From: Candidatus Omnitrophota bacterium
Lineage (GTDB): Bacteria > Omnitrophota > Gorgyraeia > Duberdicusellales > 4484-171
Assembly (NCBI GenBank): GCA_021735655.1
Contig: JAIPGM010000002.1
Location: 160,001-224,000 of the forward strand
DNA: 64,000 bases
Direction of reading: 5' to 3'
A model generated the notes under the pieces. It was not told the origin of the DNA, did no database searches, and saw only the letters and a program-made list of their open reading frames with translations. Position 1 is the first letter of the stretch. Each line of letters opens with the position of its first letter. The translations under genes were made by a program, and so were the position numbers. Shown one piece after another: positions 40,795 to 56,800 of this stretch.

Positions 40795-41091
40795 ATGATT
40801 AATAAAAAGTTTCCCTTAGAAGTAATTTTAGAAAAGAGTCAGGAAATGATTTATTTTTCGCAGTTAGACTTAATTCATCTCCTGGAGCGAGCTTTGAGGA
40901 GGACTAGATTACCACTTTATTTCACTCAAGGCTTTAGTCCAAGAGTTAAGATAAGTTTTAAAAGTGGTTTAAAACTAGGTTTAGCCGGTAGAATAACAAC
41001 CATTTTTTATTTCACTGAAGACATTCCTTTTGTAGTTTTAAAAGAGAATCTCCAGCCACAGTTACCTCAAGGATTAGTAATAATAAAATAA
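40795..41091 (+). CDS. DUF2344-like (radical-SAM-linked, TIGR03936-type) short protein
   Basis: 98 aa. SQLDLIHLLERALRRTRLPLYFTQGFSPRVKISF matches the DUF2344 N-terminal signature (..HLDL..ERA.RRA.LP...EGFHPRPKISF). Only the N-terminal half appears present. Confidence 0.5.
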   Translation: MINKKFPLEVILEKSQEMIYFSQLDLIHLLERALRRTRLPLYFTQGFSPRVKISFKSGLKLGLAGRITTIFYFTEDIPFVVLKENLQPQLPQGLVIIK

Positions 41092-41095: not shown

Positions 41096-41560
41096 CTAGC
41101 GAACAAGGAAAGTGCTTTTGATACTTGTAGCCTTAAAAAATTCCTTAGTGAAATTTTTAGCTAATTCGTGGTCATACTTTTTGCAGGAAAAAATATTAAT
41201 ATAGGACTTTTGCCAATGTTCGGAAAAATGCCCGGTAATTGAGCTAGTTTCGATAAATTGTAGCAAGGAATAGCCTTTGGTGAAGGGTTTATCTAGACCA
41301 AAATAAGGCAGCTGAGCTTTACCGTACTTCTTCATTTTAATCAACTTACATAAGGTATTAACATATTCGGTAAGCTTCTTTTTTGAACTCATGATTGATA
41401 AGTCACATCCTGAAAGATCGAGGATTAATTCGTAACCAAAGATTGGTTTTTTAATTTTGGAGGAAGAAAGAGTAGTGTCGTTGGTCGAAAGGGGCCTGCT
41501 GGCAAGGCCAACCCCAGAGTAATTTTCTTGACTGCTAATCAGGTAGTGTTTGGTTCCCAT
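41096..41560 (-). CDS. Pyruvoyl-dependent AdoMetDC-fold protein (SpeH/SpeD-like proenzyme); possibly a neofunctionalised ornithine/arginine decarboxylase
   Basis: 154 aa. LLQFIETSSITGHFSEH...YINIFSCKKYD aligns with Bacillus SpeD [29 protein letters not shown], giving an E-S autoprocessing site at ETSS. Downstream and co-oriented with CASDC/CASDH. Confidence 0.65.
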   Translation of the reverse strand: MGTKHYLISSQENYSGVGLASRPLSTNDTTLSSSKIKKPIFGYELILDLSGCDLSIMSSKKKLTEYVNTLCKLIKMKKYGKAQLPYFGLDKPFTKGYSLLQFIETSSITGHFSEHWQKSYINIFSCKKYDHELAKNFTKEFFKATSIKSTFLVR

Positions 41561-41757
41561 CCCCTTTAAGTATTTCTTTTTGATATAACATAAAAACTAA
41601 ACGCCTTAGTGAACTATCTTTTTATATCATAAATTTTATCGCTTGGCAAGATTTTTTTTCACTTTTTTTAATGAGACTTACCCAGAACCAGAACGAAGTT
41701 CAGTTCTGGGTTTAGTCGAATTAATCCCGAGGAGCGAAGCGACGAGGGATAACCGTT

Positions 41758-42990
41758 TTATTCCGCTTTAACCGGGCTTTCTTCTCGTATCTTTGTTGGC
41801 AATCCAATCTTGTTTAACAAATCAATAAATGGATCAGGGTTTAACTCTTCGACATTTACCATTGTTTTTATATCCCAAATGCCTTGAGCAATCAGCATGG
41901 CCGTGGCAACTGGGGGGACTCCAGCAGTGTAGGAAATAGCTTGAGACTCAACTTCCTTATAACATTCGGCGTGGTCACAGTTGTTATAAATAAAAATTTC
42001 CTTGTCTTTGCCGTCTTTTTTTCCTTTAATTAGATTTCCGATACAGGTTTTTCCGGTGTAGTTAGGTGCAAGTGATAAGGGATCTGGCAAAACGGCCTTT
42101 AATACTTTTAATGGCACCACTTCGACTCCTTCTGCGGTTGTGACCGGTTTCACTGAGGTTAAACCCAATCTAGTGAGGACAGTAAAGATATTGATATAAT
42201 GGTCGCTAAAACCCATCCAGAAGCGGATACTATTAGCATCGATATTCTTTGACAATGAATGGATTTCGTCGTGACCGCTTAAGTAAATAGTTTGTTTTCC
42301 AACTTCCGGAAAATCATAGGTTTTTTTAACTGAGTGGACAGGTAGACATTCCCATTTTCGGTCAATCCAGGTCCAGACTTTTATAAATTCACGAAGGTTT
42401 ATCTCCGGATCAAAGTTGGTAGCAAAATATTTTCCGTGGTCTCCGGCATTAACATCCATCATATCAATAGTGTCGATTGTGTCAAAGTGGTGCTTTACAG
42501 CATAGGCGCAGTAGGCGTTGACCACTCCTGGATCAAAGCCTGCTCCGAGGATTGCGGTGATTTGTTTTTCCGAGCATTCATCCTTTCGTTTCCATTCATA
42601 ATTAGCGTACCAAGGTGGATTCTCGCAAACCTTATTTGGATCTTCATATATGGCAGTGTCTATATAGGATACGCCAGCCTGGATGCAAGATTCAAGCAGT
42701 GCTTTATTTATATAGGTGGTGGCAAGGTTAATTATTATTTCTGAATTAGTTTCTTTAATTAGTTTTACCGTAGCCGAAACATCATAGGCATCTATTTGAC
42801 GAGAGTGAAGTTTTTTGCTTTTATCTTTTAGGCTATTTTTTCTTTTAATGCTTTCTATGATTTTTTCACACTTATCTTGTGTGCGAGATGCAATACAAAT
42901 ATCACCTAAAATATCGTTATTTTGAGCGCACTTATGCGCAGCTACATGGGCAACTCCACCAGCACCGACAATCATTACGTTTTTTTTCAT
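41758..42990 (-). CDS. Carboxynorspermidine/carboxyspermidine dehydrogenase (saccharopine dehydrogenase family)
   Basis: 410 aa. N-terminal Rossmann VMIVGAGGVAHVAAHKCAQ.., and LGAGFDPGVVNAYCAYA..NAGDHG..ATNFDPEINLRE aligns closely to Vibrio CANSDH. Confidence 0.85.
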   Translation of the reverse strand: MKKNVMIVGAGGVAHVAAHKCAQNNDILGDICIASRTQDKCEKIIESIKRKNSLKDKSKKLHSRQIDAYDVSATVKLIKETNSEIIINLATTYINKALLESCIQAGVSYIDTAIYEDPNKVCENPPWYANYEWKRKDECSEKQITAILGAGFDPGVVNAYCAYAVKHHFDTIDTIDMMDVNAGDHGKYFATNFDPEINLREFIKVWTWIDRKWECLPVHSVKKTYDFPEVGKQTIYLSGHDEIHSLSKNIDANSIRFWMGFSDHYINIFTVLTRLGLTSVKPVTTAEGVEVVPLKVLKAVLPDPLSLAPNYTGKTCIGNLIKGKKDGKDKEIFIYNNCDHAECYKEVESQAISYTAGVPPVATAMLIAQGIWDIKTMVNVEELNPDPFIDLLNKIGLPTKIREESPVKAE

Positions 42991-43026
42991 CGTAGTATTC
43001 TCCTTGTTTATTGCTTTATTTTTAAG

Positions 43027-44130
43027 CTATGACAGATTGTTTAAAAAGTCTTTATATTCAAAATGACGAACGACCTTTAAACCCCCGGTTTTCTTTTTTA
43101 TGACGATTGATGGCATTGGTAATCCATTAAACCAGTTTTTTTTAACCATGGTATATCCGGCAACATCATTAATTTTAATTATGCTGCCTATCTTTAATCG
43201 AGATTTAAATTTATAGGTTCCAAATATATCTCCGGCTAAACAGGAGCGACCAGCAATCATATATTCAAATTGTCCCTTAGCGGAAGTTTTAATTTTAGCC
43301 TCGGTTCGATAAACTAAAAGATCCAATAAATGCGCTTCGATTGAGGAGTCGACAATGGCAATATTTAGCTTGTTATGGACTATATCCAGTACGCTGGTTA
43401 TTAGTTCGGCTGACTGAGTGATAACCGCTTCTCCAGGTTCCAAATAAATTTGGACCGCAAATTTATCGCTAAAGTTCTTTAGTAATCTCGAAAATTTATC
43501 TACCGGATAACCGGGCTTGGTAAAGTATATTCCGCCGCCTAAGCTTACCCAGCTTACTTTATGCAATAAATCTCGGTAGTTTCGGGCGATAATATTTAGA
43601 TTGTTAGAAAAATTTTTAAAATTATCATTTTCGCAGTTAAAATGAAACATGAGGCCGCTTATTAAATGAACTACGTTTTGAACAGCTTTTTTGTCAACCA
43701 CACCAAGACGTGAGTACTTACGAGCCGGATTGGCTAAATCAAAGTGTGAATAACTGATTTCGGGGTTAATTCTTAAACCAATTTTTAAACCAGAGGTGTT
43801 CCCATGGAATTTTTTTAGTTGCCCGATTGAATTAAAAATAATCTTATCGGCATAGCGACGAATAGTTTTTATTTCCTTTTCAGAGAAAGCAACACTGTAA
43901 ATTTGGACTTCTTTTTGAAACTTTTCGTATCCTAGGCGAGCTTCGTGGAGAGAGCTGCTGGTCGTACCATCAAGGTATTTTTTCATTAAACCAAAGACGC
44001 TCCAGGTAGAAAAACACTTTAAAGCTAAAACGAACTTTGCTCCAGAAGATTTTTTAATCCGTTCGATTAGCTTGAGGTTTTTTAATAATTTATCCTCGTG
44101 AATTAAATAATAAGGGGTTGCTAGTTTCAT
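43027..44130 (-). CDS. nspC: Carboxynorspermidine/carboxyspermidine decarboxylase (PLP, alanine-racemase fold)
   Basis: 367 aa. MKLATPYYLIHEDKLLKNL..SGAKFVLALKCFSTWSVFGLM..DGTTSSSLHEARLG..ADKIIFNSIGQL is near-collinear with Vibrio NspC. Confidence 0.85.
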   Translation of the reverse strand: MKLATPYYLIHEDKLLKNLKLIERIKKSSGAKFVLALKCFSTWSVFGLMKKYLDGTTSSSLHEARLGYEKFQKEVQIYSVAFSEKEIKTIRRYADKIIFNSIGQLKKFHGNTSGLKIGLRINPEISYSHFDLANPARKYSRLGVVDKKAVQNVVHLISGLMFHFNCENDNFKNFSNNLNIIARNYRDLLHKVSWVSLGGGIYFTKPGYPVDKFSRLLKNFSDKFAVQIYLEPGEAVITQSAELITSVLDIVHNKLNIAIVDSSIEAHLLDLLVYRTEAKIKTSAKGQFEYMIAGRSCLAGDIFGTYKFKSRLKIGSIIKINDVAGYTMVKKNWFNGLPMPSIVIKKKTGGLKVVRHFEYKDFLNNLS

Positions 44131-44254
44131 ATTTTATTTAAATTTGGTCTATATTAACAATATTTAATTATTCTGGCAAGCCTTTTATTGAACTTTCCTT
44201 TTTGCTTGTTAACCGAGACAATTTCTGTTAAAATCGATTACTAATTTGAATATT

Positions 44255-44327
44255 GCCGAGATAGCTCAGTTGGCAGAGCAGGGGCTTCGTAAGTCTCAGG
44301 TCGAGAGTTCGAATCTCTCTCTCGGCT
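44255..44327 (+). tRNA. tRNA-Thr (anticodon CGU)
   Basis: Cloverleaf read by eye: acceptor GCCGAGA/TCTCGGC, D-arm GCTC-AGTTGGCA-GAGC, anticodon loop TTCGTAA, T-arm GAGAG-TTCGAAT-CTCTC. No encoded CCA. Confidence 0.85.
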
Positions 44328-44349: not shown

Positions 44350-45597
44350 ATGCGGTACTTAAAAATACTCAAGAAACGGAATTTTTTCCTTCTTTGGTTT
44401 GGCCAAATAATTTCTCAATTTGGCGATCGGCTCACTCAGATTGCTCTGGTTGGTTTAGTATCGGCGGCTTCAAAATCTTCGGCCCAGTTGGCGGTTGTAA
44501 TGAGCATGGCGATTGTGCCAGTTTTTATTATTTCACCAATATCTGGTGTGTATATTGACCGTTGGGATAAGCGTAAAACACTCTACCTTTGCGATTCAAT
44601 AAGGGTTATTCTTATGTTGTTAATACCGTTTGTTTTCCTTAAATCGCATTCACTTATTCCGATATATGCTTTAATTTTCCTTTCTTTTAGTGCTGGTCGG
44701 TTTTTCATTCCGGCTAAGATGGCCTTCTTACCCCGAGTGGTTGAAAAAAAAGATATATTTATGGCTAACTCATTAATATCTAATACCGCAACCATTGCTG
44801 CCGTATTAGGAATTGGTTTGGGTGGGGTATTGGTCGAAAGATATGGGCTAGTCGTTGGCTTTAATCTCGACGCGGCAACTTTTTTTATTTCGGGTATGTC
44901 AATTTTTTTAATTTCGGTTCAAGGCAAAGGTGAGTTCTTAGCTAAAGACATTTTAGATATTGGAAAAAATGTTGTCGCTAGCGTAAAGAAATCATTTTTG
45001 TATGAATTAAAAGAAGGGATTGGCTATATTTTTAAATCAAAAGAAACAAAGTACGCTTTTAAAATATTTTTCTTTCTTTTTTCATATATCGGAGCTTTGT
45101 ACGTCGTGTTCATTCGATTTATTCAAAATACCTTATCTTCAGTTACCAAGGATGTAGGCTTTGCTGCAGTTGGTTTAGGGGCAGGAATTTTTTTGGGAAC
45201 CTTAGCTTATGGTCGAATTGCCCATAAGTTTTCAATTAAAAAAGTTATTAACTGGTCAGTATTGCTTTCATCTTTTTTTATTGTATTTTTTGCAGTATTC
45301 TTAAGGGGATATCCCTATACTATTTGTTTAATTTTGCTGGCTTTCGGGCTAGGAATTATGATTTCTCCGGCTTTTGTTGGGGTCAATGCTTTAATTCATC
45401 GAGAGAGTGACGAGAATCTGCTAGGCAGAATTTTTAGCGGCTTAGAGTTTACTTCCCATTTAGGATTTTTAGTTGCAATGCTTTGTGCTTCAATACTAGC
45501 TGATATTATGACTCCCTTTACAATTGTAGTTTCGGTCGGTATAATCGGATCATTTTTTTCCTTATGTTTTATTTTTTGTGATGATTACAGTAGCTGA
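44350..45597 (+). CDS. MFS transporter
   Basis: 415 aa, 12 predicted TM helices, MFS motif-A-like GDRLTQIA / DRWDKRK loop. Confidence 0.7.
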   Translation: MRYLKILKKRNFFLLWFGQIISQFGDRLTQIALVGLVSAASKSSAQLAVVMSMAIVPVFIISPISGVYIDRWDKRKTLYLCDSIRVILMLLIPFVFLKSHSLIPIYALIFLSFSAGRFFIPAKMAFLPRVVEKKDIFMANSLISNTATIAAVLGIGLGGVLVERYGLVVGFNLDAATFFISGMSIFLISVQGKGEFLAKDILDIGKNVVASVKKSFLYELKEGIGYIFKSKETKYAFKIFFFLFSYIGALYVVFIRFIQNTLSSVTKDVGFAAVGLGAGIFLGTLAYGRIAHKFSIKKVINWSVLLSSFFIVFFAVFLRGYPYTICLILLAFGLGIMISPAFVGVNALIHRESDENLLGRIFSGLEFTSHLGFLVAMLCASILADIMTPFTIVVSVGIIGSFFSLCFIFCDDYSS

Positions 45598-46867
45598 ATG
45601 TAAAAAACCTCAGTCTAAGCTTCGAAGCGAAAAATTTTTGACTCCAAAGAAGCTCTATCTACCACTTTCTCAACATACCGGAAAACCTTCCAGTTGTTGT
45701 GTTAAGGTTGGTGATTTTATTGAAGAGTCGCAAGTAATCGCCAATCAAGATGGCTACATCTCTTCCTATTTGCATGCCCCAGCTAGTGGCAAGGTAATAG
45801 CAATTAATGCTTGGAACAATCCGGTTTTAGGGAGATCTGAAGCAATTATTTTAGAACCACAAGGAGTTAGTAAAAAATATTTACCGAGAGAGGGCATTGA
45901 GAACCTTACTAAGGAAAAGCTTATTGAAATTATTGCTGCTAGCGGTATCGTTGGCATGGGTGGAGCAGCCTTTCCTACTCAAGTTAAACTCAAAAGTCCC
46001 AAACCGATCGACACCTTAATTATTAACGGCTGTGAATGCGAACCTTATCTCACTACCGATCATCGTTTAATGGTTGAGAATTTAAAAGAAATCTTTCTCG
46101 GTATCGAAATTATTTGCCGGATAATTAAACCCAAAGTGGTAATTTTTGCTGTCGAAGAAAACAAATCGGATGCAATAAAGCAGATAAATCTATTAATACA
46201 TACGAAGAAGTTTTCCTTGCTAGCAGCTCGCACAGCGGTTTTGCCTTCTTATTATCCCCAGGGCGGCGAAAAGCAATTAATTTACAGTACTACTAGACGT
46301 AAGGTTCCTGGCGGAAAGTTGCCTTTGGATCTTGGCTGTTTGGTGCATAATGTTGCAACCTGTTTTGCTATTTACGAAGCAGTTTATTATAGTAAGCCCT
46401 TAATCGAGCGTTTAGTGAGTTTTTGTGGCGAGGCCTTGACTGCCCCAAAAAACATTTGGGTTAAAATCGGAACTTCACTCAAAGAACTGTTTGACCAAAA
46501 AATTATAGAATTTAGAACTGAACCGGAGAAGATAATTTCCGGAGGCCCAATGATGGGGACGAGTTTGGACAGTTTGGATTACCCAATCCTTAAATCAACT
46601 GGAGGGTTTTTGTTTCTAACTAAAGGGCCAAAAGAACTGACAGAAGGTTCTTGTTTGCGTTGTGCGCGTTGTGTCGACGCTTGTCCGATGGAACTTTTAC
46701 CTTTAGAGTACTATAAACGAGCAAAAAAAGGCGAGTATCAGGATTTAAGCACTTTTAATATAAATGATTGCATTGAATGCGGTTGCTGTGCTTTTAGCTG
46801 TCCGGCTAAAATTCCGCTTGTGCATTATATAAAAGCAGGAAAACGTTATGCCCCTAAAAATAAGTAG
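45578..46867 (+). CDS. rnfC: Rnf complex subunit C (NADH-binding, Fe-S)
   Basis: 429 aa. RnfC barrel-sandwich N-terminus, SGIVGMGGAAFPT, and two 4Fe-4S motifs CLRCARCVDACP / CIECGCCAFSCP. Confidence 0.85.
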   Translation: MMITVAECKKPQSKLRSEKFLTPKKLYLPLSQHTGKPSSCCVKVGDFIEESQVIANQDGYISSYLHAPASGKVIAINAWNNPVLGRSEAIILEPQGVSKKYLPREGIENLTKEKLIEIIAASGIVGMGGAAFPTQVKLKSPKPIDTLIINGCECEPYLTTDHRLMVENLKEIFLGIEIICRIIKPKVVIFAVEENKSDAIKQINLLIHTKKFSLLAARTAVLPSYYPQGGEKQLIYSTTRRKVPGGKLPLDLGCLVHNVATCFAIYEAVYYSKPLIERLVSFCGEALTAPKNIWVKIGTSLKELFDQKIIEFRTEPEKIISGGPMMGTSLDSLDYPILKSTGGFLFLTKGPKELTEGSCLRCARCVDACPMELLPLEYYKRAKKGEYQDLSTFNINDCIECGCCAFSCPAKIPLVHYIKAGKRYAPKNK

Positions 46868-47798
46868 TTCACCACATTTTTTATCAAAAGTCGATACTCA
46901 GCATTTAATGACTCAAGTGCTTGTAGGCTTAATCCCGGTAATTTGCGCTTCAGTATACTTTTTCGGCCTAAGGGCAGGATTGCTTATTTTGAACTGTATG
47001 GTGACCGCAATAGCCACTGAGGCGGTTATTCTATACTTACGTAAGAAAGCTTTAGCGATAACTGATGGTAGTGCCGCAGTTACTGGGTTGCTTTTAGCCT
47101 TGATTTTGCCTCCGACGACTAAGTGGTATGCCGCTACTATGGGTTCAGTTTTTGCAATTTTTATTGGAAAACATATTTTCGGTGGCCTAGGTGCTAATAT
47201 ATTTAATCCGGCCTTAATTGCCAGGGCCTTTTTGATGGCTGCTTACCCTAAAATGCTGACCACTTTTAGCGCGCCGATTCGTTGGTTAATTGTGAAGCCT
47301 CAACAATGGGATTCTATAAGTCAAGCTACACCTTTAGTATTAAAAAAATTTAGTCAGGAAATTACACCTAATCTTGATTTATTTATTGGCAATATTTCCG
47401 GCAGCCTCGGTGAGACATCAGCTATTTGCATAATTATTGGCGGATTGTATCTTTTGATTCGAAAAATTGCTGATTGGCGAATTCCTTTGTCGCTGATTGT
47501 GACTGTGGTCATAATTTCAGAGATTGGTTTTATTTTAAGGCCAACTAACGCCGACGTGTTGTTTCATCTTTTTAGTGGAGGGTTGTTGTTGGGGGCGCTG
47601 TTTATGGCTACCGATCCAGCTACGACCCCGATTACTAAAAAAGGACGATATATTTTCGGTATAGCTTGTGGTGCATTGATTATGGTAATTCGCTATTTTG
47701 GTGGTTTACCGGAGGCGGTCATGTATTCGATTCTTTTCATGAATGCCTTGACGCCTTTAATTAATCGCTATACGCTCCCAAAGGCATTTGGAAGATGA
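46848..47798 (+). CDS. rnfD: Rnf complex subunit D
   Basis: 316 aa polytopic NqrB/RnfD-family membrane protein with FMN-attachment-like SGxxxT region (ATDPATTP). Confidence 0.85.
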   Translation: MPLKISSSPHFLSKVDTQHLMTQVLVGLIPVICASVYFFGLRAGLLILNCMVTAIATEAVILYLRKKALAITDGSAAVTGLLLALILPPTTKWYAATMGSVFAIFIGKHIFGGLGANIFNPALIARAFLMAAYPKMLTTFSAPIRWLIVKPQQWDSISQATPLVLKKFSQEITPNLDLFIGNISGSLGETSAICIIIGGLYLLIRKIADWRIPLSLIVTVVIISEIGFILRPTNADVLFHLFSGGLLLGALFMATDPATTPITKKGRYIFGIACGALIMVIRYFGGLPEAVMYSILFMNALTPLINRYTLPKAFGR

Positions 47799-48397
47799 AA
47801 GAAATAATTAAAATTATTGTAGTTTTAACTTTAGTCTGCATTATTTGTGCGTTTTTTTTAGCTTTAGTTCAAGGCTTAGCTGAGAAAAAAATTGAGTTTA
47901 ATGCTGCTAAAAGAATAAAGGACGCGATATCTAATCTTGCTCCTGGTTATTCAGATATTGAAGAAATTGTTGTAGAGGAAGATGTCATTTATAAGTTAAA
48001 AGATAAATCAGGAAAGTCAATCGGCTATGCTTTCTCAGCTCAAGGCCAAGGCTACCAGGGAAAGATAAAAATCTTAGCGGTAGCCAACCCTTCCTTGAAT
48101 CGCCTTGAGGGAATTGAAATAGTCGACTCTTTAGAGACTCCTGGTTTAGGAGCAAAGATACAGGAAGAACCTTTTAGTGGTCAGTTTAAGGGACTTAATT
48201 TAGGCGAATCAATCCAGTGTGTTAAGGGTGCTTCGACTGATGACGATAAGGTCCCGGCTGTTAGTCAAGCGACAAAAGTCTACTCAAAGAGTCAAATTGA
48301 AGCAATTACTGGAGCAACCGTTTCCTCAAGGGCAGTGGTTAATATCTTAAATGAACGTATTAAAATATTACATAAGCAGTTAAAGAAAGATAACTAG
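47795..48397 (+). CDS. rnfG: Rnf complex subunit G (FMN-binding)
   Basis: 200 aa. N-terminal TM plus FMN_bind domain with the covalent-FMN motif SGATVSS. Confidence 0.8.
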   Translation: MKEIIKIIVVLTLVCIICAFFLALVQGLAEKKIEFNAAKRIKDAISNLAPGYSDIEEIVVEEDVIYKLKDKSGKSIGYAFSAQGQGYQGKIKILAVANPSLNRLEGIEIVDSLETPGLGAKIQEEPFSGQFKGLNLGESIQCVKGASTDDDKVPAVSQATKVYSKSQIEAITGATVSSRAVVNILNERIKILHKQLKKDN

Positions 48398-48410
48398 GGT
48401 TTGTTAGAAA

Positions 48411-48992
48411 ATGAAAAAAGAATTTATTAAAGGCCTTTGGAAAGAGCATCCGGTATTTCGTCAACTTCTTGGTATGTGCCCGACCTTAGCCGTAACTACT
48501 TCGGCGATTAACGGTCTTTCTATGGGGCTGGCGGTAATTTTTGTTTTGTTTTTTTCATCCTTAGTGGTTGCTTTGATTAAAAAATTAATTCCCCATCAAG
48601 TAAGAATTGCTGTTTATACTGTGATTATTGCTACCTTTGTTACTATCGTTGATCTGTTCTTCAAGGCTCAATTTCCTGAGATTAGTCGTGCTCTCGGGCC
48701 TTATATTCCTTTAATTATTGTTAACTGCATTATTTTAGGAAGGTGTGAAGCCTTTGCTTCAAAGCACTCAGTTTCATCATCTTTATTTGATGCTTTGGGG
48801 ATGGGTTTAGGCTTTACTTGGGGGGTATTTTTGCTCGGTTCAATTCGAGAGCTATTTGGTGCCGGAACAATTCTCGGATTTCGTTTATTTCCTTTAAGCT
48901 ATAATCCGTTGATCGTAATGATTCTTCCGGCTGGAGCATTTCTAGTCCTAGGTTTTTTAGTCGCAACAATGAATAAATTAGAACAAAAATGA
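48411..48992 (+). CDS. rnfE: Rnf complex subunit E
   Basis: 193 aa RnfE/NqrD-family membrane protein (LGMCPTLAVT.., NCIILGR). Confidence 0.85.
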   Translation: MKKEFIKGLWKEHPVFRQLLGMCPTLAVTTSAINGLSMGLAVIFVLFFSSLVVALIKKLIPHQVRIAVYTVIIATFVTIVDLFFKAQFPEISRALGPYIPLIIVNCIILGRCEAFASKHSVSSSLFDALGMGLGFTWGVFLLGSIRELFGAGTILGFRLFPLSYNPLIVMILPAGAFLVLGFLVATMNKLEQK

Positions 48993-49573
48993 ACGAATTA
49001 TTATTAATTTTTATTTCAGCGATTTTAGTCAACAATTTGGTGCTTTCTTACTTTCTCGGAATTTGTCCTTTCTTGGGCGTTTCAGGAAAGGTTGAATCAG
49101 CCTTTGGGATGGGGTTGGCGGTTACTTTTGTGATGGTTTTGGCAACTAGCATTAGTTGGTTAATTTATCATTTAGTTTTAGTAAAGTTTGGATTGCTTTT
49201 TTTGCAATACGTAATCTTTATCTTAGTGATCGCATCTTTAGTTCAGATGGTCGAAATGTTTATTCGCAAATTTTCAAATTCGCTTTATCAAGCTCTAGGT
49301 ATATATTTACCATTAATCACCACTAATTGTGCCATTTTGGGTGCGGCTCTTTTTATGGTAACTAGAAACTACTCATTTTTAGAATCAGTAGTTTTTGGAT
49401 TTTCTGGTGGTTTGGGTTTTTCTTTAGTTCTTTTGGTTATGGCTGGAATTCGCCAAGAACTTGATTATGCTGATATTCCTGAGGTATTTAAAGGTGCACC
49501 AATAACTTTAATTATTGCTGGTTTACTAGCATTAATTTTTATGGGATTTTCTGGTTTGTTTAGCAGTATATAA
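48989..49573 (+). CDS. rnfA: Rnf complex subunit A
   Basis: 194 aa RnfA/NqrE-family membrane protein (LGICPFLGVS.., NCAILG). Confidence 0.85.
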   Translation: MNELLLIFISAILVNNLVLSYFLGICPFLGVSGKVESAFGMGLAVTFVMVLATSISWLIYHLVLVKFGLLFLQYVIFILVIASLVQMVEMFIRKFSNSLYQALGIYLPLITTNCAILGAALFMVTRNYSFLESVVFGFSGGLGFSLVLLVMAGIRQELDYADIPEVFKGAPITLIIAGLLALIFMGFSGLFSSI

Positions 49574-49574
49574 A

Positions 49575-50378
49575 ATGATTATTAGCGCAGTGGTAACTTT
49601 AGGTTTGGTTGGTTTTCTTTTTGCGTTACTTTTAGCTTTTTTGAGTAAAAAGTTACAGGTTGAAGAAGACCCAAAAGTTAAAACGGTTCTTGAGATCGTT
49701 CCTGGCTTGAACTGCGGAGCTTGTGGCTTTTCCGGTTGTCGCCCATTTGCTGAAGCAGTAGCTAGAGAATCTAAAATTTTTAATGGTTGTCTTCCTGGTG
49801 GTCAGGAAATTAACGATAAGATATCACAAATTCTCGGCATTACCGGTTGTTCGGGATTAAAAAGTCAGGTTGTTATCTGTTGTTGTGGTGCTGATGAGAC
49901 TGCGAAAAAAATATCAACCAAATATATTGGGCCGCAAACCTGCCAAGCAGCCCAGATTACTGGTGGGGCCTTAGATTGCCGATATGGATGTTTTGGTTTT
50001 GGTGATTGTTTAGGAATTTGTCCGGTCGGCGCCTTAACTTTGGATAAAAAGAAAATTAAGGTTGATATTGCTAAATGCATTGGTTGTGGCCAATGTGTTG
50101 AGATTTGTCCGCGCAATCTATTTAAAATAACTCCCTTGCCTGAAATTACTGGTTTTTATTCGGTTGCTTGCAGCAATAAGGAGAAAGCAATGAATGTAAA
50201 GAAGGTTTGCGCTCAAGGGTGTATTGCTTGCACAATTTGCACTCGAGTGCCTGAATCACCTTACTACATGAAAGATAATCTTTCTTATATTGATTATTCC
50301 AAATCAAACAACACTGAACCGCTTCAGGCAGGAATGGACAAATGCCCAACTAAATGTATAGTAAAACTTGATGGATAA
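49575..50378 (+). CDS. rnfB: Rnf complex subunit B (polyferredoxin)
   Basis: 267 aa. N-terminal TM, then NCGACGFSGC and several CxxCxxCxxxCP ferredoxin motifs. Confidence 0.8.
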   Translation: MIISAVVTLGLVGFLFALLLAFLSKKLQVEEDPKVKTVLEIVPGLNCGACGFSGCRPFAEAVARESKIFNGCLPGGQEINDKISQILGITGCSGLKSQVVICCCGADETAKKISTKYIGPQTCQAAQITGGALDCRYGCFGFGDCLGICPVGALTLDKKKIKVDIAKCIGCGQCVEICPRNLFKITPLPEITGFYSVACSNKEKAMNVKKVCAQGCIACTICTRVPESPYYMKDNLSYIDYSKSNNTEPLQAGMDKCPTKCIVKLDG

Positions 50379-51780: not shown

Positions 51781-53828
51781 GGAATTCTACGTATATTTTC
51801 CTCGGCCTTTCGGGCATTAAGATAATCCCCATACTCATAAAATAAGTCATGAGCTTTTAGGAAATTTTCTTTAGCTTTTTGGTTTTCTCCTAAAGCGGAG
51901 TAGGTTCTGCCCATGCCGAAGTATACCTGCGGAGAATCAGGTTTTATTATTAAAGCTTTACGGAAGTGCTGAATTGCTTTTTTGTATTGAACTAAGTTGG
52001 TATAAGTTTCCCCTAGGCTATAATGTATTTGAAAGTTGTCAGGGTCAAGGCGCAATGCCTTCTCAAGGTAGTTTAGGGCTTTTTGTTGTTCTGAGGCGTT
52101 TTTATTTTTTAGGCCTAGTTCATTATGGGCCTTAGACAGGCTAACATATATATCGGGAGATTCCGGAATTGAAGCAAGGACTTTTTCATATTTAGTAATT
52201 GCTCTTTCGTATTGACCTAAAGTTAAATAAGTATTCGCTAATCCGAGTTCCGCTGAGATAGAGGTTGGGTCTAATCTTAGGGCCTTTTCGAAATTATCTA
52301 TTGCCTTTTGAGAATCGCCTAAAAGTCTATAGACATCGCCCAAAGATAAATAGGTTAGAAAATAATCATCTTTTAGTTTTTGTGACCTTAGAAGATACTG
52401 TAATGCTTTTTGATATTGGCCAAGCCTTAGGTACACACTTCCAATGCTGCGGTAAATCTCTGGGTCTTTAGAATTTTTGGCTTCGGCATTTTCAATTGCT
52501 CGTTCAAGATATTGCAATGCTTCTTCAGGAATTCCTAAATCAGCGTAAATCTTGCTTAAAGCCTCGATGATGCCCGGGTAGTCAGGCTGTGCGAGAAAGA
52601 CCTGTTTGAATTCTTCAAGAGCTTCCTTGGGCCTATCAAGAATGCGGTAACATTCACCTAAAGGAAAATGAATTGTTGGGTTTCTAGGATCCAGTTTTAG
52701 CGCATAATTAAAAGCAGCCAGGGCTTGTTTGTGGCGACCCAAATTCATGTAGGTTTCACCGAGCAGCACTTGTGCGTAGATATAACCTGGTGAAATTTCA
52801 AGAGTTTTTCTACAGAAGGCTATTACTTTGTCGAAATTTTTGTTTTCACCTTGAGAATACCGATAGGCTTGACTTAGATAAAAGTTTGCTTTATAGAGTT
52901 TAAATAGTGTTTTATTACTGTCAGCTTCGGGTGGGTACAAGAAAACTTTGTTAACTTCACCAGTTGATGATTTGAATAAAACTGTTTTTGTTTTTTTATT
53001 AAAGTTATCGTTTATTGTAGCGCGTTTGATTTGGATAAAAGAAGAGTAGTTTTCGACTATTTCTCTAGTTATTCTTTCAACTTCTTTATCGGGCGTTGGG
53101 ATATCCGGACTATACTTTTTAATTCGGACATTAAAATCGACTATTATCCGAGAGCTTTGGTAGCGAACATCAATATCGTTAACTTCAAAGTTATCGTTTA
53201 AGCTCGGGGCCAAAAAGGTTCTAGAAATTCTTTCTTGAATTAGCATAGGAATAAACTCAGCTAAGCCAACATTATATTTGCGGAGGTAACGACCACGATC
53301 ATCTTCTAGTATGTTTTTATCGATAAAGGGAGTTTGAAAAGAAATAATTCGTTTTTCAAATTCATAGGCGGATATGTTAGTCGCTAAACCATAAGTGGCT
53401 AAGGTTAGTCTTATCTGATCAGGAATAAATATCAGTTCGTATTGGTTCATCCTGATTAAATTTATTCCTTTTAGACGTTGGATATCGGATTTAACAAAAC
53501 AATAAAATATTGGCGGAGCATCCATATTGAGAAGGGCTCGTTGTATTGATTGAGAAATTTTTCTGACAGTTTCAGACAAGTCTTCATCAACTTTTCCTTC
53601 TTCGTTTACTTTAAATTTGCCAGCTTCATCAAAAAATTCAACCGGGGCATAAACCCAAAGAGTCTCTCCAACCAGCCAAGTGCTTACTTCGATTTTATGC
53701 TCTTCCCTACAGATTTTTTTTATTATTTCGGCAATATCTTTACGTGAATAGGTTGGTGGGACAGAACAGGAAATTAGTAGAAGAGCGCAAAAACTAAGCA
53801 GGAGGTTTTTGAGAGGTATTTTTTGCAT
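51777..53828 (-). CDS. TPR-repeat lipoprotein (N-terminal unknown domain plus ~9 TPR units)
   Basis: 683 aa. Signal peptide with lipobox LLISC. The C-terminal half is a series of 34-aa TPR units (..A..Y.LG..Y...G....A...F..AL.L.P..). Its start overlaps the 3' end of the tandem ftsH by 35 nt. Confidence 0.75.
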   Translation of the reverse strand: MQKIPLKNLLLSFCALLLISCSVPPTYSRKDIAEIIKKICREEHKIEVSTWLVGETLWVYAPVEFFDEAGKFKVNEEGKVDEDLSETVRKISQSIQRALLNMDAPPIFYCFVKSDIQRLKGINLIRMNQYELIFIPDQIRLTLATYGLATNISAYEFEKRIISFQTPFIDKNILEDDRGRYLRKYNVGLAEFIPMLIQERISRTFLAPSLNDNFEVNDIDVRYQSSRIIVDFNVRIKKYSPDIPTPDKEVERITREIVENYSSFIQIKRATINDNFNKKTKTVLFKSSTGEVNKVFLYPPEADSNKTLFKLYKANFYLSQAYRYSQGENKNFDKVIAFCRKTLEISPGYIYAQVLLGETYMNLGRHKQALAAFNYALKLDPRNPTIHFPLGECYRILDRPKEALEEFKQVFLAQPDYPGIIEALSKIYADLGIPEEALQYLERAIENAEAKNSKDPEIYRSIGSVYLRLGQYQKALQYLLRSQKLKDDYFLTYLSLGDVYRLLGDSQKAIDNFEKALRLDPTSISAELGLANTYLTLGQYERAITKYEKVLASIPESPDIYVSLSKAHNELGLKNKNASEQQKALNYLEKALRLDPDNFQIHYSLGETYTNLVQYKKAIQHFRKALIIKPDSPQVYFGMGRTYSALGENQKAKENFLKAHDLFYEYGDYLNARKAEENIRRIP

Positions 53829-56800
53829 ACTTTTTAAAAATTAGTTCTAGTTCAGATTGGGTAAGCTCTTCTTTTTTTAACAATTCACTTGTTAAATGTT
53901 CGAATAAATCTTTTTCTTTTTCTAATAAAGCAACGGTTGATTTAAGGCAATCCTGAAGTAATTCTTGAGTTTCCATATCTAACTTTGATTTCATTTCTTC
54001 AGACAGTAGATTGTTTTCGTTTTGTTCAAATAAAAAGTCACCAATGTATCCTGAACGACCCATGCCCCAACGCCAAACCATTGATCTAGCATACCACATC
54101 GAAGTTTTAAAATCCTGAGAAACACCATTGGTAGTGCTGGCAGTAATTTTCTCAGCAGCATATCCACCAAGAAAAATCTTGATAGTGGACAATAGTTCTT
54201 CCTTGGTGCCGGCGGAACGATCTCCTTTGGTAGCATACCAAGCTACACCTAAAGTTTTGTCTCTTGGAATAATAGATAACTTAAAGGGGAAATTTCCTTT
54301 TCCAAAAAAATACTCAGCTAAACAATGTCCGGCTTCATGGTAGGCGGTGGCCTTAAGCTCCTCGGGGGTTAATTTTAATTTCTTTTTTAAGCCTAATTCT
54401 ATTCTTTCTCGAGCTTCATCGAGCTCTTTCATACCCAGAATAGTTTTTTTCATTTTAGCAGTTAGAAGAGTGCCTTCTTTAATTAAATTAGCTATATCAG
54501 CCGGGGAATAACCCGGAGTAATACCGGCAAACATTTCAGGGTCAATCTCATCTTTGTTATACTTAGTTTTAGAAAGATAAAACTGAAATAACTGCTTTCT
54601 TTCGTCAAAGGTTGGTAAAGAAACATGGAGTTTTCGATCAAACCTTCCCGGCCTAAGAACCGCTTTATCCAAGTTACTTTCATCGGTATTGGTAGCGCCA
54701 ATAATAACAATATTATATTCAGCATCCTTTTCCTTTAAACCGTCCATTTCAACTAAAAATTGGTTTAAAGTTTGATTATGTTCTTGAGTACCGCCGAAAC
54801 CTTTGTCCATAGCCCTTTTGGCGCATAAAGCATCAATTTCATCAATAAAAATTATACAGCCACCTTTGGCTAATGCTTGCTCTCTAGCTTCCCTGAACAT
54901 TTGGCGCACTCGGCTTGCGCCCACACCGACAAACATTTCTACGAATTCTGAACCAGCCTTAGCGATAAAAGGGATCCCTGCCTCATTAGCGATAGCAGAG
55001 GCAAGATAAGTTTTTCCGCATCCAGGAGGGCCAAGCATTAACAAACCCTTAATAATTTGTCCACCCATTTGTTTTAGGTTGGCTCGGTCTTTTATTAAGC
55101 TGACAATTTCTTTGGCTTCGTCTTTTGCGCCTTCCATACCAATGATATCATCCCAACCTATAGAATCTTTTTTTGACTTTTTCATTCCTTCCATTATATA
55201 AGTAAGCCTAGTTTTCCCATGTTTTTTGAAGGTTTCTTCTATTTGATCGTAATCTAACTCTTCTTCTTTTAATAAACGGTTAGCAATTTCATCTAAAATT
55301 ACTTTTTCTCGACGTAATATTTCATTGACTTCATCCAAACATTTATTAATGATATCTTCTTTGTCTCTTTCAGAAATTTGCGAAGGGAAGCCATGTTCTT
55401 GAGTTATACCTCCTGGGCCCGAAGTCCCCATGCCCCACTGATCTACCATTTTCATCGCTAGATTGTTTGCTTGTTTAAGATCTTTCCCTACTCCGGAAGA
55501 TACCGAACCAAAGCGAATTTTTTCAGCAGCATAACCACCAAGAAAACTCTTTATTTGACCTAAAAGATATTCTTTATCCGGGATGTGGCGTTCTTCTTTG
55601 TCCCTTGTCCAGGTAACCCCTCCGGCTGAACGTCTAGGAATAATACTAGCCTTAAAAACATCTTGAGTTGGCACTAAAAAGTAAGTAGCCAGTGTGTGTC
55701 CGGCTTCATGGTAGGCGGCAATTTTTTTATCTTGGAGAGATAACACATATTCAGCTTTTATCCCGATATCGATTCTTTCTTTTGCGTCATGGATGTCGGA
55801 CAAATCAACTTGATTTTTTTTCTTACGGGTAGCAATTAGAGAAGATTCACGAACAATGTTTGCTATGTCAGCTGGGCTATTGCCAACTGTAAAACGAGCT
55901 AACTTAGCAAAATCAATTTTTTCCTTATTGTAGGAAATCTTGGTGAAATAGTATTGTAAAAGATCTTCACGTTCTTTTAACCCGGGGAGCCCAACATAAA
56001 CTTTGCGGTCGAATCGTCCGGGACGCATTAGGGCGCTATCAAGTTCACTCTCGGGAACATTTGTCGCCGCGATTATTACGATATTGTCTTTGGCAGTATC
56101 TAACCCGTCCAATTCAGTTAAAAGCTGATTAACGGTAGCATTATAATCTTGACCGGCACGGCCGCCTCCGGAACTTTCTATTCTCGGTCGGGCGAAAGTA
56201 TCAATTTCATCGATAAAAATTATACAACCACCATCTATTTCAGCGGAGATTCTGGCTTCCTTAAATAGGCTTTTTACTCGATTGGCGCCAACCCCGACAA
56301 ACATACCTTGGAATTCACTACCGGCAACGTGAAGAAAGGGGAGTTTCGTTTCAGTAGCGATAGCTTTAGCCAGATAAGTCTTTCCGCATCCAGGAGGGCC
56401 AATCATTAAAACACCTTTAATAATTTTTCCGCCAACCCGGTCTAAATTAGTATGGTCATTTATGAGCTGAATTACTTCCCAGACTTCCTTCTTTATGTTT
56501 TCCATCCCAATAACGTCAGACCATCTGACATTCACTGATTGCGGTTTTACTTTTTTTGATTTTAATTTATCAAGACCTCCCCCCCAAAGAAAGTATACAA
56601 ATATACTTGTCGTTATTGCACCGGATACAGTACCGACAATTAGCATAAAAAAGATTTGCAGAGGAATACCGGCAAGCATTGATTTACGAAAAAAAGAATC
56701 TAACTGGAAGAAGGTTCGAAGGCCAACAGTGGTTAAAGCAATTATGCTTAGAATTAGGAGAATAGCTACACTTATTATCGTAACTTTTATCCAGTGTAGT

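What the first reader, a model, noticed from the sequence alone, without database searches (positions are those of the whole stretch)
41096..44130. Polyamine operon: carboxyspermidine pathway (CASDC, CASDH) plus a SpeD-fold pyruvoyl protein that may be a neofunctionalised ornithine/arginine decarboxylase
CASDH and CASDC make (nor)spermidine from a diamine and aspartate semialdehyde without decarboxylated SAM, so a genuine AdoMetDC in the same operon would be redundant. The 154-aa SpeD-like protein keeps the E-S autoprocessing site (ETSS) and the FSEH / FSC core of class 1 AdoMetDC but is otherwise divergent. Published work from the Michael laboratory showed that some bacterial and archaeal AdoMetDC homologues have become pyruvoyl-dependent L-ornithine or L-arginine decarboxylases, often found next to CASDH/CASDC. 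Here it could supply the putrescine or agmatine precursor. This window would then encode a compact three-gene route from amino acid to spermidine. No speE, speA, speC or agmatinase gene is visible in the 64 kb.
Basis: partly seen in the sequence, partly recalled or inferred. Interest (0 to 1): 0.7.

Follow-up and report, generated by a model that had tools for sequence, protein, structure and literature searches.

The report
Pyruvoyl ornithine decarboxylase beside carboxyspermidine genes
An Omnitrophota genome carries, next to the two carboxyspermidine-pathway genes, a small SpeD-fold gene whose sequence signature marks it as a pyruvoyl-dependent ornithine decarboxylase rather than a SAM decarboxylase, a gene arrangement already described in 2023, so this is a new example of a known kind.

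Summary
Three minus-strand ORFs at 41096-44130 encode CASDC, CASDH and a 154-aa class 1b AdoMetDC-fold protein. It is identical to NCBI MCF7907639.1, annotated as "S-adenosylmethionine decarboxylase", from a Candidatus Omnitrophota MAG.

The small protein is very probably not an AdoMetDC.
- It scores 16 bits against the AdoMetDC equivalog model, whose cut-off is 76.
- It has T105|S106-S107 where AdoMetDCs have E|S-H.
- It lacks the W-P-E proline.
- It has the Gln/Thr/Phe/Tyr residues that Li et al. (JBC 2023) give as diagnostic for SpeDC, the pyruvoyl L-ornithine decarboxylases.

In my trees it groups with two assayed SpeDC domains and away from validated AdoMetDCs. Relatives of the same Omnitrophota subfamily lie next to CASDC-CASDH (six loci) or in a speD-speE-speD2 operon (one locus), and never near agmatine-processing genes.

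The likely route is ornithine to putrescine to carboxyspermidine to spermidine. That paper already describes SpeDC in Omnitrophota and a speDC-casdc-casdh cluster.

Two details may be new. The gene has its own conserved promoter-like element. It also has a disordered N-terminal extension, seen only where the gene is linked to CASDC-CASDH. Substrate specificity is untested.

The parts
43027..44130 (-). CASDC: PLP-dependent carboxy(nor)spermidine decarboxylase, 367 aa
   Evidence: TIGR01047 nspC 442.2 bits, above the 409.05 cut-off. PDB 3MT1 433 bits, 3N29 277 bits. The sequence keeps the alanine-racemase-fold motifs LALK38CF, SLGGGI, EPGEA and SCLAGD; assigning these to PLP binding and the active site rests on my own knowledge of the fold.
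41758..42990 (-). CASDH: carboxy(nor)spermidine dehydrogenase/synthase, 410 aa; starts 36 bp after the CASDC stop
   Evidence: Pfam Sacchrp_dh_NADP and Sacchrp_dh_C. NF043000 503 bits, below the equivalog cut-off of 800. PDB 8DEB 'carboxyspermidine dehydrogenase' 339 bits, 4INA 364 bits. N-terminal GAGGVA dinucleotide-binding motif.
41096..41560 (-). SpeDC-type SpeD homologue, 154 aa proenzyme: predicted pyruvoyl-dependent L-ornithine decarboxylase. Predicted beta chain residues 1-105, alpha chain 106-154.
   Evidence: Pfam AdoMet_dc 51 bits. TIGR03330 only 16.4 bits against a 75.65 cut-off. AlphaFold2 mean pLDDT 84; Foldseek best hits are T. maritima AdoMetDC 1TLU (TM 0.86, rmsd 1.7 A) and 1VR7. 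Motif QFIETSSITGHFSEHWQKSYINIFSC against assayed SpeDC QLIETSL(I/V)SGHFAN..Y.D.FSC and AdoMetDC VVI(S/A)ESH...H.WPE..A.D.FTC. Trees.
41243..41245 (-). Codon of Ser106, the predicted self-cleavage and pyruvoyl-forming serine (T105|S106); H111 and C126 follow
   Evidence: Ungapped alignment to T. maritima S63/H68/C83. Codon position read.
41453..41560 (-). N-terminal extension (codons 1-36), Ser/Thr-rich and predicted disordered, with the conserved start M-x-T-K-x-Y and the motif (A/S)GVxLAxxP
   Evidence: pLDDT below 50. There is no ATG/GTG/TTG between codon 1 and the conserved FGYEL start of the fold. Differences from L004 are spread evenly over codon positions, 12/11/11, against 15/5/46 in the core. 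An in-frame extension occurs in all 6 CASDC/CASDH-linked loci and in none of 4 unlinked loci.
41621..41649 (-). Promoter-like element directly upstream of the speDC-type gene: TTGCCA, 17 nt, TATAAA preceded by TG
   Evidence: Read. The same element (TTGCAA/TTGCCA ... TGTGnTATAAA) is conserved in six otherwise divergent loci (alignment A3). The consensus scan does not report it because the second hexamer ends in A.
41675..41754 (-). Two stable stem-loops directly after the CASDH stop codon, with no U-tract
   Evidence: RNA fold -28.7 kcal/mol, z = -4.2, 0 of 200 shuffles as good. Unique in the window. Absent from the 107-bp spacer of the close relative L004. No canonical terminator found. Only a sub-threshold Rfam hit on the other strand.
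44151..44179 (-). Promoter-like element upstream of CASDC: TTGCCA, 17 nt, TAATAT with TG
   Evidence: 9 of 12 matches, TG present. Sequence. It ends 21 nt before the CASDC ATG.

Best explanation
The three genes encode a SAM-independent route from L-ornithine to spermidine.

The 154-aa protein is a SpeDC-type enzyme, that is, a class 1b AdoMetDC-fold proenzyme. It is predicted to cleave itself between T105 and S106, turning S106 into a covalently bound pyruvoyl group. With H111 and C126 it would then decarboxylate L-ornithine to putrescine. CASDH would condense putrescine with aspartate beta-semialdehyde and reduce the product to carboxyspermidine (NADPH is the cofactor reported for characterised CASDH). 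The PLP-dependent CASDC would decarboxylate that to spermidine.

CASDC and CASDH are probably co-transcribed from a promoter-like site at 44179-44151. The decarboxylase gene follows two hairpins and has its own conserved promoter-like element.

Shown here: gene identities, the fold, the catalytic triad, the SpeDC signature, clade placement, and conserved gene contexts.
Inferred: self-cleavage, ornithine as substrate, putrescine as the CASDH substrate, and the transcript structure.
For: (1) The protein is not an AdoMetDC by the curated model: TIGR03330 gives 16.4 bits against a 75.65 cut-off. A genuine SpeD from a related genome scores 126.8.

(2) The fold and triad are intact. Foldseek gives TM 0.86 to T. 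maritima AdoMetDC. S106, H111 and C126 align without gaps to S63, H68 and C83.

(3) The SpeDC signature of Li et al. 2023 (Gln, Thr, Phe, Tyr; loss of the AdoMetDC proline; PMC10407285) is present as Q101, T105, F112, Y120 and E114. The same residues occur in the two assayed ODC domains (OLB16, D. phosphitoxidans) read from Fig. S5 of that paper.

(4) Trees. In the smaller tree, the query family plus the general SpeDC clade form a split in 100 of 100 replicates, excluding all validated AdoMetDCs. With 150 representative clusters added, the query and the assayed ODC domains separate from the AdoMetDC-type references in 199 of 200 replicates if phage phiN3 is ignored.

(5) Context. The same subfamily lies next to CASDC-CASDH in the window and in L002, L003, L004/5, L007 and L015. 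In L016 it is the third gene of speD-speE-speD2, beside an equivalog-grade AdoMetDC and spermidine synthase. These are the two spermidine contexts that the paper reports for assayed speDC genes.

(6) No arginase-fold or agmatine deiminase genes occur in the 64-kb window or within 6-10 kb in the ten related loci whose annotated gene tables I read.

(7) An Omnitrophota SpeDC (Ca. Velamenicoccus archaeovorus LiM) and a speDC-casdc-casdh cluster (Ca. Electrothrix aarhusiensis) have been assayed as ornithine-specific.
Against: No assay exists for this protein or for any member of its Omnitrophota subfamily that I could identify. I could not retrieve the sequence of the assayed Omnitrophota enzyme WP_128700171, so its relation to this subfamily is unknown.

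The subfamily is only about 31% identical to the assayed OLB16 domain. In my trees it is a sister or separate lineage within the radiation, not nested beside an assayed protein.

Clade membership does not fully fix the substrate. The SpeDC clade contains the arginine-specific pelagiphage HTVC201P enzyme, and one phage enzyme (UCP01) uses both substrates.

The validated AdoMetDC of phage phiN3 shares Q, F and Y, differing at D-S-H. It lowers support for the ODC/AdoMetDC split to 113 of 200 replicates.

The positions of the four diagnostic residues are inferred from alignments, because the WebLogo figure is not readable with these tools.

The rest of the genome could not be searched for speE, speB, aguA/B or ornithine-supplying genes.
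Confidence: 0.77

Rival explanations
1. The protein is a pyruvoyl arginine decarboxylase (SpeDA-like). The agmatine it makes feeds the CASDH/CASDC homologues acting as carboxyaminopropylagmatine dehydrogenase and decarboxylase (the CAPA pathway of Synechocystis, PMC10599626). A ureohydrolase elsewhere in the genome would finish the route to spermidine.
For: ADC activity has arisen several times from this fold, and one ADC sits inside the SpeDC clade. The window CASDH scores almost equally against a solved CASDH (8DEB, 339 bits) and against 8H4Z (333 bits), labelled only 'saccharopine dehydrogenase', whose substrate I could not establish. The diamine substrate of the CASDH is therefore not fixed by sequence. 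The rest of the genome is unseen.
Against: The protein has the Thr/Gln/Phe/Tyr signature that the authors say separates ODCs from ADCs. No arginase-fold gene or aguA/aguB lies in the 64 kb or near the gene in ten related loci. The assayed speDA genes were found with speB or aguA/B, mostly in speY clusters.
Confidence: 0.08
2. The Omnitrophota subfamily has a third substrate. One example is L-2,4-diaminobutyrate, giving 1,3-diaminopropane and hence norspermidine through CASDH/CASDC. Another is L-lysine, giving cadaverine.
For: The subfamily forms its own lineage, with S after the pyruvoyl Ser, F-S-E-x-W and Y-I-N where the assayed domains have L, F-A-N and Y-x-D. CASDH and CASDC are the same enzymes that make norspermidine in Vibrio (family names). 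No assayed member of the subfamily was identified.
Against: These variant residues are common and occur mixed within the wider SpeDC-signature radiation: S 30 against L 29, and N 27 against D 63, among the 90 full-signature sequences of the 171 in that alignment. They also occur in SpeD-SpeDC fusion proteins. In L016 the subfamily is paired with speD-speE, which needs putrescine. No assayed homologue accepted lysine. No diaminobutyrate aminotransferase gene is in the window.
Confidence: 0.07
3. It is a genuine but divergent S-adenosylmethionine decarboxylase, as annotated in NCBI, working with a spermidine synthase encoded elsewhere.
For: NCBI and JGI name it S-adenosylmethionine decarboxylase. 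Phage phiN3 shows that an AdoMetDC can carry Q, F and Y at the signature positions. metK lies in the window at 25729-26865.
Against: It falls far below the equivalog cut-off. It has T-S-S rather than E/D-S-H, and no W-P-E. In L016 a subfamily member sits beside a true SpeD and SpeE, which would make it redundant. All assayed proteins with this signature lacked AdoMetDC activity. No speE is in the window.
Confidence: 0.04
4. It is an inactive or regulatory SpeD-fold protein, like the degraded C-terminal domain of the Victivallis fusion or a trypanosome prozyme.
For: Degraded SpeDC domains exist.
Against: Ser, His, Cys and the conserved glycines are invariant in 30 subfamily members. The core shows strong third-position bias in its differences from L004, 15/5/46, which indicates purifying selection on a complete active site.
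Confidence: 0.03

Closest known systems
Ca. Electrothrix aarhusiensis speDC-casdc-casdh cluster (SpeDC RWX43081; Li et al., JBC 2023, PMC10407285)
   Same: A SpeD homologue with ornithine-only decarboxylase activity lies directly adjacent to CASDC and CASDH. This gives a SAM-independent ornithine-to-spermidine route with no speE, speA/C or speB.
   Different: [quoted passage not shown] Here it is the last gene, after two hairpins and its own promoter-like element. The phylum differs (Thermodesulfobacteriota against Omnitrophota). The window protein has a 36-aa disordered N-terminal extension. I did not have the RWX43081 sequence to compare.
Ca. Velamenicoccus archaeovorus LiM SpeDC (WP_128700171), assayed Omnitrophota pyruvoyl ODC
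   Same: Same phylum, and a single SpeD homologue that failed to complement speD and used only L-ornithine.
   Different: Identity to the window protein and membership of the same subfamily are therefore unknown.
SpeDC domains of the SpeD-SpeDC fusion proteins of Ca. Omnitrophica OLB16 (KXK35843) and Desulfotignum phosphitoxidans (WP_006968726)
   Same: End-to-end alignment. Invariant Q..IETS...GHF.......Y...FSC..YD. Pyruvoyl Ser preceded by Thr.
   Different: About 31% identity to the OLB16 domain. Those domains are fused to a real AdoMetDC and work with SpeE. They have L, not S, after the pyruvoyl Ser, F-A-N rather than F-S-E, and Y-x-D rather than Y-I-N.
Thermotoga maritima AdoMetDC (class 1b SpeD; PDB 1TLU, 1VR7)
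   Same: Same fold (TM 0.86, rmsd 1.7 A) and the same Ser/His/Cys self-processing and catalytic triad.
   Different: 18% identity. E-S-H and W-P-E are replaced by T-S-S and F-S-E. The curated AdoMetDC model is failed. The predicted substrate is ornithine, not SAM.
PLP-dependent ornithine decarboxylases (SpeC/SpeF, alanine-racemase-fold ODC)
   Same: Same predicted reaction and the same place in the pathway (established knowledge of polyamine biosynthesis).
   Different: Unrelated folds and cofactor. [quoted passage not shown]

Membership tests
SpeDC (pyruvoyl-dependent L-ornithine decarboxylase derived from class 1b AdoMetDC; Li et al. 2023) | Class 1b AdoMetDC fold | tested here: met
   Pfam PF02675 51 bits. 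AlphaFold2 core pLDDT above 93. Foldseek top hits are T. maritima and Aquifex AdoMetDC, TM 0.75-0.86.
SpeDC | Self-processing and catalytic Ser, His and Cys (T. maritima S63, H68, C83) | tested here: met
   S106, H111 and C126 align without gaps. They are invariant in 30 subfamily members.
SpeDC | Four diagnostic residues Gln, Thr, Phe, Tyr in the central region | tested here: met
   Q101, T105, F112 and Y120 are identical to the two assayed SpeDC domains and differ from all validated AdoMetDCs at Thr. Caveat: the positions are inferred from alignment, since the paper's WebLogo could not be read.
SpeDC | Falls in the single SpeDC clade, apart from bona fide SpeD | tested here: met
   NJ trees give 100 of 100 and 199 of 200 when phiN3 is excluded, but 113 of 200 when it is included. 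Only two assayed ODC anchors were available, and no maximum-likelihood tree with the full published set was made.
SpeDC | Genome context: clustered with casdh/casdc, speD/speE or hss; no speB or aguA/B | tested here: met
   Window, six loci with CASDC-CASDH and one with speD-speE. Absence of agmatine genes was checked only for 64 kb and the locus flanks, not whole genomes.
SpeDC | Decarboxylates L-ornithine, not SAM, arginine or lysine; self-cleaves to alpha and beta chains | not testable with these tools
   Needs expression, SDS-PAGE and enzyme assays.
Bona fide AdoMetDC (SpeD, NCBIfam TIGR03330) | Score at or above the curated equivalog cut-off | tested here: not met
   16.4 bits against 75.65. 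The control SpeD from L016 scores 126.8.
Bona fide AdoMetDC (SpeD) | E-S-H processing motif and the conserved proline of H-x-W-P-E | tested here: not met
   T-S-S and H-F-S-E; position H+3 is Glu.
Bona fide AdoMetDC (SpeD) | Obligatory partner spermidine synthase (SpeE) | tested here: inconclusive
   None in the 64-kb window. The rest of the 322,746-bp contig (the length on record for this protein) and the rest of the genome could not be read.
SpeDA (pyruvoyl L-arginine decarboxylase derived from AdoMetDC) | Partner genes that convert agmatine (speB or aguA/aguB), usually with speY | tested here: not met
   Absent from the window and from all related loci examined. Whole genome not testable.
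CASDC / CANSDC (NCBIfam TIGR01047 nspC) | Equivalog score and alanine-racemase-fold PLP motifs | tested here: met
   442 bits, above 409. 433 bits to 3MT1. The Lys38, GGG, EPGE and CLAGD motifs are present.
CASDH / CANSDH (NCBIfam NF043000) | Equivalog score; saccharopine-dehydrogenase N and C domains; similarity to solved CASDH | tested here: inconclusive
   Both Pfam domains are present, with 339-364 bits to 8DEB and 4INA. However, 503 bits is below the 800-bit equivalog cut-off. Putrescine, agmatine or diaminopropane preference cannot be read from the sequence.

The most novel reading that the evidence does not exclude
The Omnitrophota subfamily may be more than another SpeDC. The N-terminal extension is conserved at its tip and disordered elsewhere. 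It was seen only where the gene follows CASDC-CASDH (6 of 6 linked loci, 0 of 4 unlinked). It could be a docking or regulatory element that couples the decarboxylase to the carboxyspermidine enzymes, or that senses polyamines. Alternatively or in addition, the subfamily might have a substrate other than ornithine, for example 2,4-diaminobutyrate, which would make this a pyruvoyl route to norspermidine.
Probability: 0.12. Interest if true: 0.55.

Novelty: new member of a known kind. Interest (0 to 1): 0.27.

Why it matters
The result corrects an annotation. This protein, and at least about 1,260 90%-identity clusters of Omnitrophota relatives, are labelled S-adenosylmethionine decarboxylase in public databases, but they most likely make putrescine.

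It supports the published picture that Omnitrophota build polyamines with small pyruvoyl enzymes. It shows that one subfamily is attached to either of the two alternative spermidine modules: CASDH/CASDC in six loci and SpeD/SpeE in one.

It does not open a new question. Two modest leads are the extension linked to CASDC-CASDH and the gene's separate promoter-like element.

Tried and rejected
Exact look-ups of the window's SpeD-like and CASDH proteins to read more of the source contig found nothing on record. I therefore could not check the rest of the genome for speE, speB or arginine-pathway genes.

I tried four times to obtain the assayed Omnitrophota enzyme WP_128700171: the genome-contig scan (only three close loci), a profile search, and single-sequence searches from two branches of the family. 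No listed hit was named Velamenicoccus.

A single-sequence search of the PDB found nothing. A profile search reached T. maritima AdoMetDC only at E = 0.3, so the fold was established through AlphaFold2 and Foldseek instead. No SpeDC structure turned up in the solved-structure libraries.

Searches of GenBank phages for assayed phage ODC anchors returned only AdoMetDC-type or uncharacterised homologues. The supplement of the PNAS 2023 paper holds no sequences.

I considered a riboswitch or known RNA in the 197-bp CASDH-speDC spacer. There is only a sub-threshold GA-cis hit on the opposite strand, and the hairpin sequences are unique in the window, so I rejected a repeat-element reading.

I considered the downstream ABC transporter (59955-62969) as a polyamine importer. 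Its binding protein resembles carbohydrate binders, weakly, so I rejected that.

I looked for residues that separate putrescine-using CASDH from agmatine-using CAPADH in PMC10599626 and found no usable signature.


Full report
**Observation.** The interval 41096-44130 holds exactly three minus-strand ORFs.
- The first (44130..43027, 367 aa) passes the NCBIfam equivalog for carboxynorspermidine decarboxylase (TIGR01047, 442 bits, cut-off 409). It matches the solved enzymes 3MT1 and 3N29 at 433 and 277 bits.
- The second (42990..41758, 410 aa) starts 36 bp downstream. It has both saccharopine-dehydrogenase domains. It scores 503 bits against carboxynorspermidine synthase, below that model's strict cut-off of 800, and 339-364 bits against solved CASDH-type structures.
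- The third (41560..41096, 154 aa) hits Pfam AdoMet_dc at 51 bits.

Pfam scans of essentially all other ORFs of at least 100 aa in the window found no spermidine synthase, no other basic-amino-acid decarboxylase and no arginase-fold protein.

The 154-aa sequence is identical to NCBI MCF7907639.1, 'S-adenosylmethionine decarboxylase [Candidatus Omnitrophota bacterium]'. The window therefore comes from an Omnitrophota MAG.

**What the small protein is.** It has the class 1b AdoMetDC fold. An AlphaFold2 model (mean pLDDT 84, core above 93) superposes on T. maritima AdoMetDC with TM 0.86 and rmsd 1.7 A at 18% identity.

The central region aligns without gaps to T. maritima. S106, H111 and C126 fall on the processing and catalytic residues S63, H68 and C83.

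It is not a standard AdoMetDC.
- It scores 16.4 bits against the curated equivalog model, whose cut-off is 75.65. A real SpeD from a related genome scores 126.8.
- Validated AdoMetDCs read (V/I)(S/A)-E-S-H...H-x-W-P-E...A-x-D-x-F-T-C. The references were T. maritima, three SpeD1 domains of fusion proteins, and phages S-PM2 and P2559S.
- The window protein reads Q-F-I-E-T-S-S-I-T-G-H-F-S-E-H-W...Y-I-N-I-F-S-C.

**Comparison with the published neofunctionalised enzymes.** Li, Liang, Phillips and Michael (JBC 2023, PMC10407285) assayed many 'anomalous' SpeD homologues. They defined SpeDA (arginine) and SpeDC (ornithine) enzymes. They state that SpeDC proteins form one clade, recognisable by four diagnostic residues (Gln, Thr, Phe, Tyr), and that bona fide AdoMetDCs keep a proline that the others lack.

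Their supplementary Figure S5 gave me, through OCR, the sequences of two assayed ODC domains (Ca. Omnitrophica OLB16 and Desulfotignum phosphitoxidans) and three assayed AdoMetDC domains.
- The window protein aligns end to end with the ODC domains, about 31% identical to the OLB16 domain. It shares Q..IETS...GHF.......Y...FSC..YD.
- At the signature columns it reads Q/T/F/Y with Glu in place of the proline, as the ODC domains do.

**Trees.** I built a neighbour-joining tree of the window protein, 15 subfamily members, 20 general SpeDC-profile hits and the anchors.
- The Omnitrophota subfamily is monophyletic (100 of 100 replicates).
- The general SpeDC group, which contains both assayed ODC domains, is monophyletic (100 of 100).
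- The two together are separated from all AdoMetDC references (100 of 100).

An exhaustive search of 1.84 billion cluster representatives found 1,085 related clusters. The subfamily collapses to two clusters at 50% identity, followed by a continuum of relatives at 59-35% identity.

With 150 of these representative clusters added:
- The query and the assayed ODC domains share a 126-member clade that contains no validated AdoMetDC.
- The split from the AdoMetDC-type references appears in 199 of 200 replicates when phage phiN3 is left out, but in only 113 of 200 when it is included.

PhiN3's enzyme is a validated AdoMetDC (PMC9992855). It shares Q, F and Y but has D-S-H at the processing site. 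Thr at -1 and a non-His residue at +1 are therefore the informative positions, and the window protein has the SpeDC state at both.

The subfamily's own peculiarities are Ser after the pyruvoyl Ser, F-S-E-x-W and Y-I-N. These are common states that occur mixed across the wider signature-bearing radiation, and they also occur in SpeD-SpeDC fusion proteins. They do not mark a separate kind.

**Gene context in relatives.** The Omnitrophota subfamily is large: at least 1,261 clusters at 90% identity, and every named hit is from Omnitrophota.
- The CASDC-CASDH-SpeD-like order recurs in L002, L003, L004/5, L007 and L015. In each case it lies between an MFS/rnf block and a DUF2344/radical-SAM/rodA block.
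- In L006 (closed genome CP070807.1), L008/9 and L017 the gene stands alone.
- In L016 it is the third gene of speD-speE-speD2. It sits beside an AdoMetDC with I-S-E-S-H...H-T-W-P-E that passes the equivalog cut-off, and a spermidine synthase that passes its own cut-off.

That last layout is one that Li et al. validated as AdoMetDC plus spermidine synthase plus ODC. Their discussion says speDC genes are found with speD/speE, casdh/casdc or hss, whereas speDA genes mostly accompany speY; the assayed speDA genomes also carry speB or aguA/B.

No arginase-fold or agmatine deiminase gene appears in any of the ten loci whose annotated gene tables I read, or in the window. One subfamily attached to both alternative spermidine modules is best explained by a function that both modules need, which is putrescine supply.

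**Mechanism proposed.** The proenzyme cleaves itself between T105 and S106, and S106 becomes the pyruvoyl group of a 49-residue alpha chain. The enzyme decarboxylates L-ornithine to putrescine. CASDH couples putrescine to aspartate beta-semialdehyde to give carboxyspermidine. CASDC removes the carboxyl group to give spermidine.

The identities, fold, triad, signature and contexts are shown. Self-cleavage, the substrate and the CASDH substrate are inferred. I put this at about 0.77.

Rivals:
- An arginine decarboxylase feeding a carboxyaminopropylagmatine route (0.08). No ureohydrolase is in sight and the signature is wrong for it, but the CASDH substrate is not readable from sequence.
- A different substrate such as diaminobutyrate (0.07).
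- A true AdoMetDC (0.04).
- An inactive protein (0.03).

**Transcription.** CASDC has a promoter-like site 21 nt upstream of its start: TTGCCA, 17 nt, TG-n-TAATAT.

Directly after the CASDH stop there are two stable hairpins (-28.7 kcal/mol, z = -4.2). They have no U-tract and are missing from the shorter spacer of the close relative L004.

Further downstream there is a second promoter-like element: TTGCCA, 17 nt, TATAAA with TG. It is conserved in six divergent loci. The decarboxylase gene therefore probably has its own promoter, and 'operon' is not established for all three genes.

**N-terminal extension.** Residues 1-36 precede the fold and are predicted disordered. There is no canonical start codon between codon 1 and the conserved FGYEL.

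Differences from L004 in this part are spread evenly over codon positions (12/11/11), against 15/5/46 in the core. Most of the extension is therefore weakly constrained. Its first residues (M-x-T-K-x-Y) and an (A/S)GVxLAxEP motif do recur.

An in-frame open extension is present in all six CASDC/CASDH-linked loci. In L015 the gene caller had missed it. It is absent from all four unlinked loci. I have no tested explanation for this correlation.

**Novelty.** Li et al. already report assayed SpeDC enzymes from Omnitrophota (Ca. Velamenicoccus archaeovorus LiM and the OLB16 fusion). They also report a speDC-casdc-casdh cluster in Ca. Electrothrix aarhusiensis, and they estimate at least 1,000 SpeDC homologues. 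My profile search found at least 7,938.

This locus is therefore a new member of a known kind. Its practical value is a corrected annotation for a large, mislabelled Omnitrophota family. The extension and the separate promoter-like element are minor leads.

The main gap is that I could not obtain the LiM sequence or any assayed member of this exact subfamily, and could not read the rest of the genome.

Noticed in passing
window 41453-41560 (-); L002 7779-8000, L003 4857-5072, L004 10001-10105, L007 8001-8132, L015 5779-6000: The disordered N-terminal extension of the SpeD-like protein, with its conserved tip M-x-T-K-x-Y and an AGVxLAxEP motif, occurs in all six loci where the gene follows CASDC-CASDH. 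It occurs in none of the four loci where it does not. In L015 the extension was not included in the called gene.
   Followed up: partly
window 41621-41649 (-) and 41675-41754 (-): The CASDH-speDC spacer has a promoter-like element (TTGCCA, 17 nt, TG-n-TATAAA) conserved in six loci. It also has two stable hairpins (z = -4.2) that the close relative L004 lacks. There is a sub-threshold Rfam GA-cis hit on the opposite strand at 41668-41758.
   Followed up: partly
L016 4795-6366 (GCA_043815545.1, JBDRIX010000015.1): An Omnitrophota speD-speE-speD2 operon. It has an equivalog-grade AdoMetDC and spermidine synthase, followed (with a 14-nt overlap) by a member of the window's subfamily that is 68% identical over the core.
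   Followed up: yes
L010 180-596 (Sinorhizobium phage phiN3 SpeD, YP_009212407.1): This experimentally validated AdoMetDC carries three of the four 'ODC-diagnostic' residues (Gln, Phe, Tyr) but has D-S-H at the processing site. It is the reference that destabilises the ODC/AdoMetDC split in trees.
   Followed up: partly
L014 986-3321 (Microcystis phage MaAM05): The phage carries speH_2 (AdoMetDC-like, 62% identical to T. maritima), speH_1 (a second, divergent SpeD homologue with E-S-H but no W-P-E), speE and speB in a row. This layout suggests an uncharacterised phage SpeDA arginine decarboxylase.
   Followed up: no
window 44255-44327 (+): tRNA-Thr (anticodon CGT) lies between the CASDC promoter region and the divergently oriented MFS transporter gene.
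   Followed up: yes
window 44350-45597 (+) and 45578-50378 (+): An MFS_3/EntS-like transporter gene overlaps the start of rnfC by 20 nt and so appears to be the first gene of the rnf operon. The MFS-rnf block lies next to the polyamine genes in L004, L007 and L015 as well.
   Followed up: no
window 53794-56871 (-): A 1025-aa FtsH-like ORF with two AAA stretches and two peptidase M41 stretches. It looks like a tandem-duplicated or fused FtsH, which is much longer than the usual single-module protein.
   Followed up: no
window 250-5061 (+): A 1603-aa protein with seven Laminin_G_3 (concanavalin-like lectin) repeats; function not examined.
   Followed up: no
window 40795-41091 (+): The TIGR03936/DUF2344 radical-SAM-associated protein is only 98 aa and covers just the first half of the family model (positions 6-92 of 209). 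It is similarly short (87-103 aa) in the related Omnitrophota loci.
   Followed up: no
window 43027-44130 (-): The cluster includes a PLP-dependent CASDC, although the literature (PMC10407285, citing a phylum survey) says PLP biosynthesis is missing or incomplete across Omnitrophota. This implies PLP salvage or uptake.
   Followed up: no
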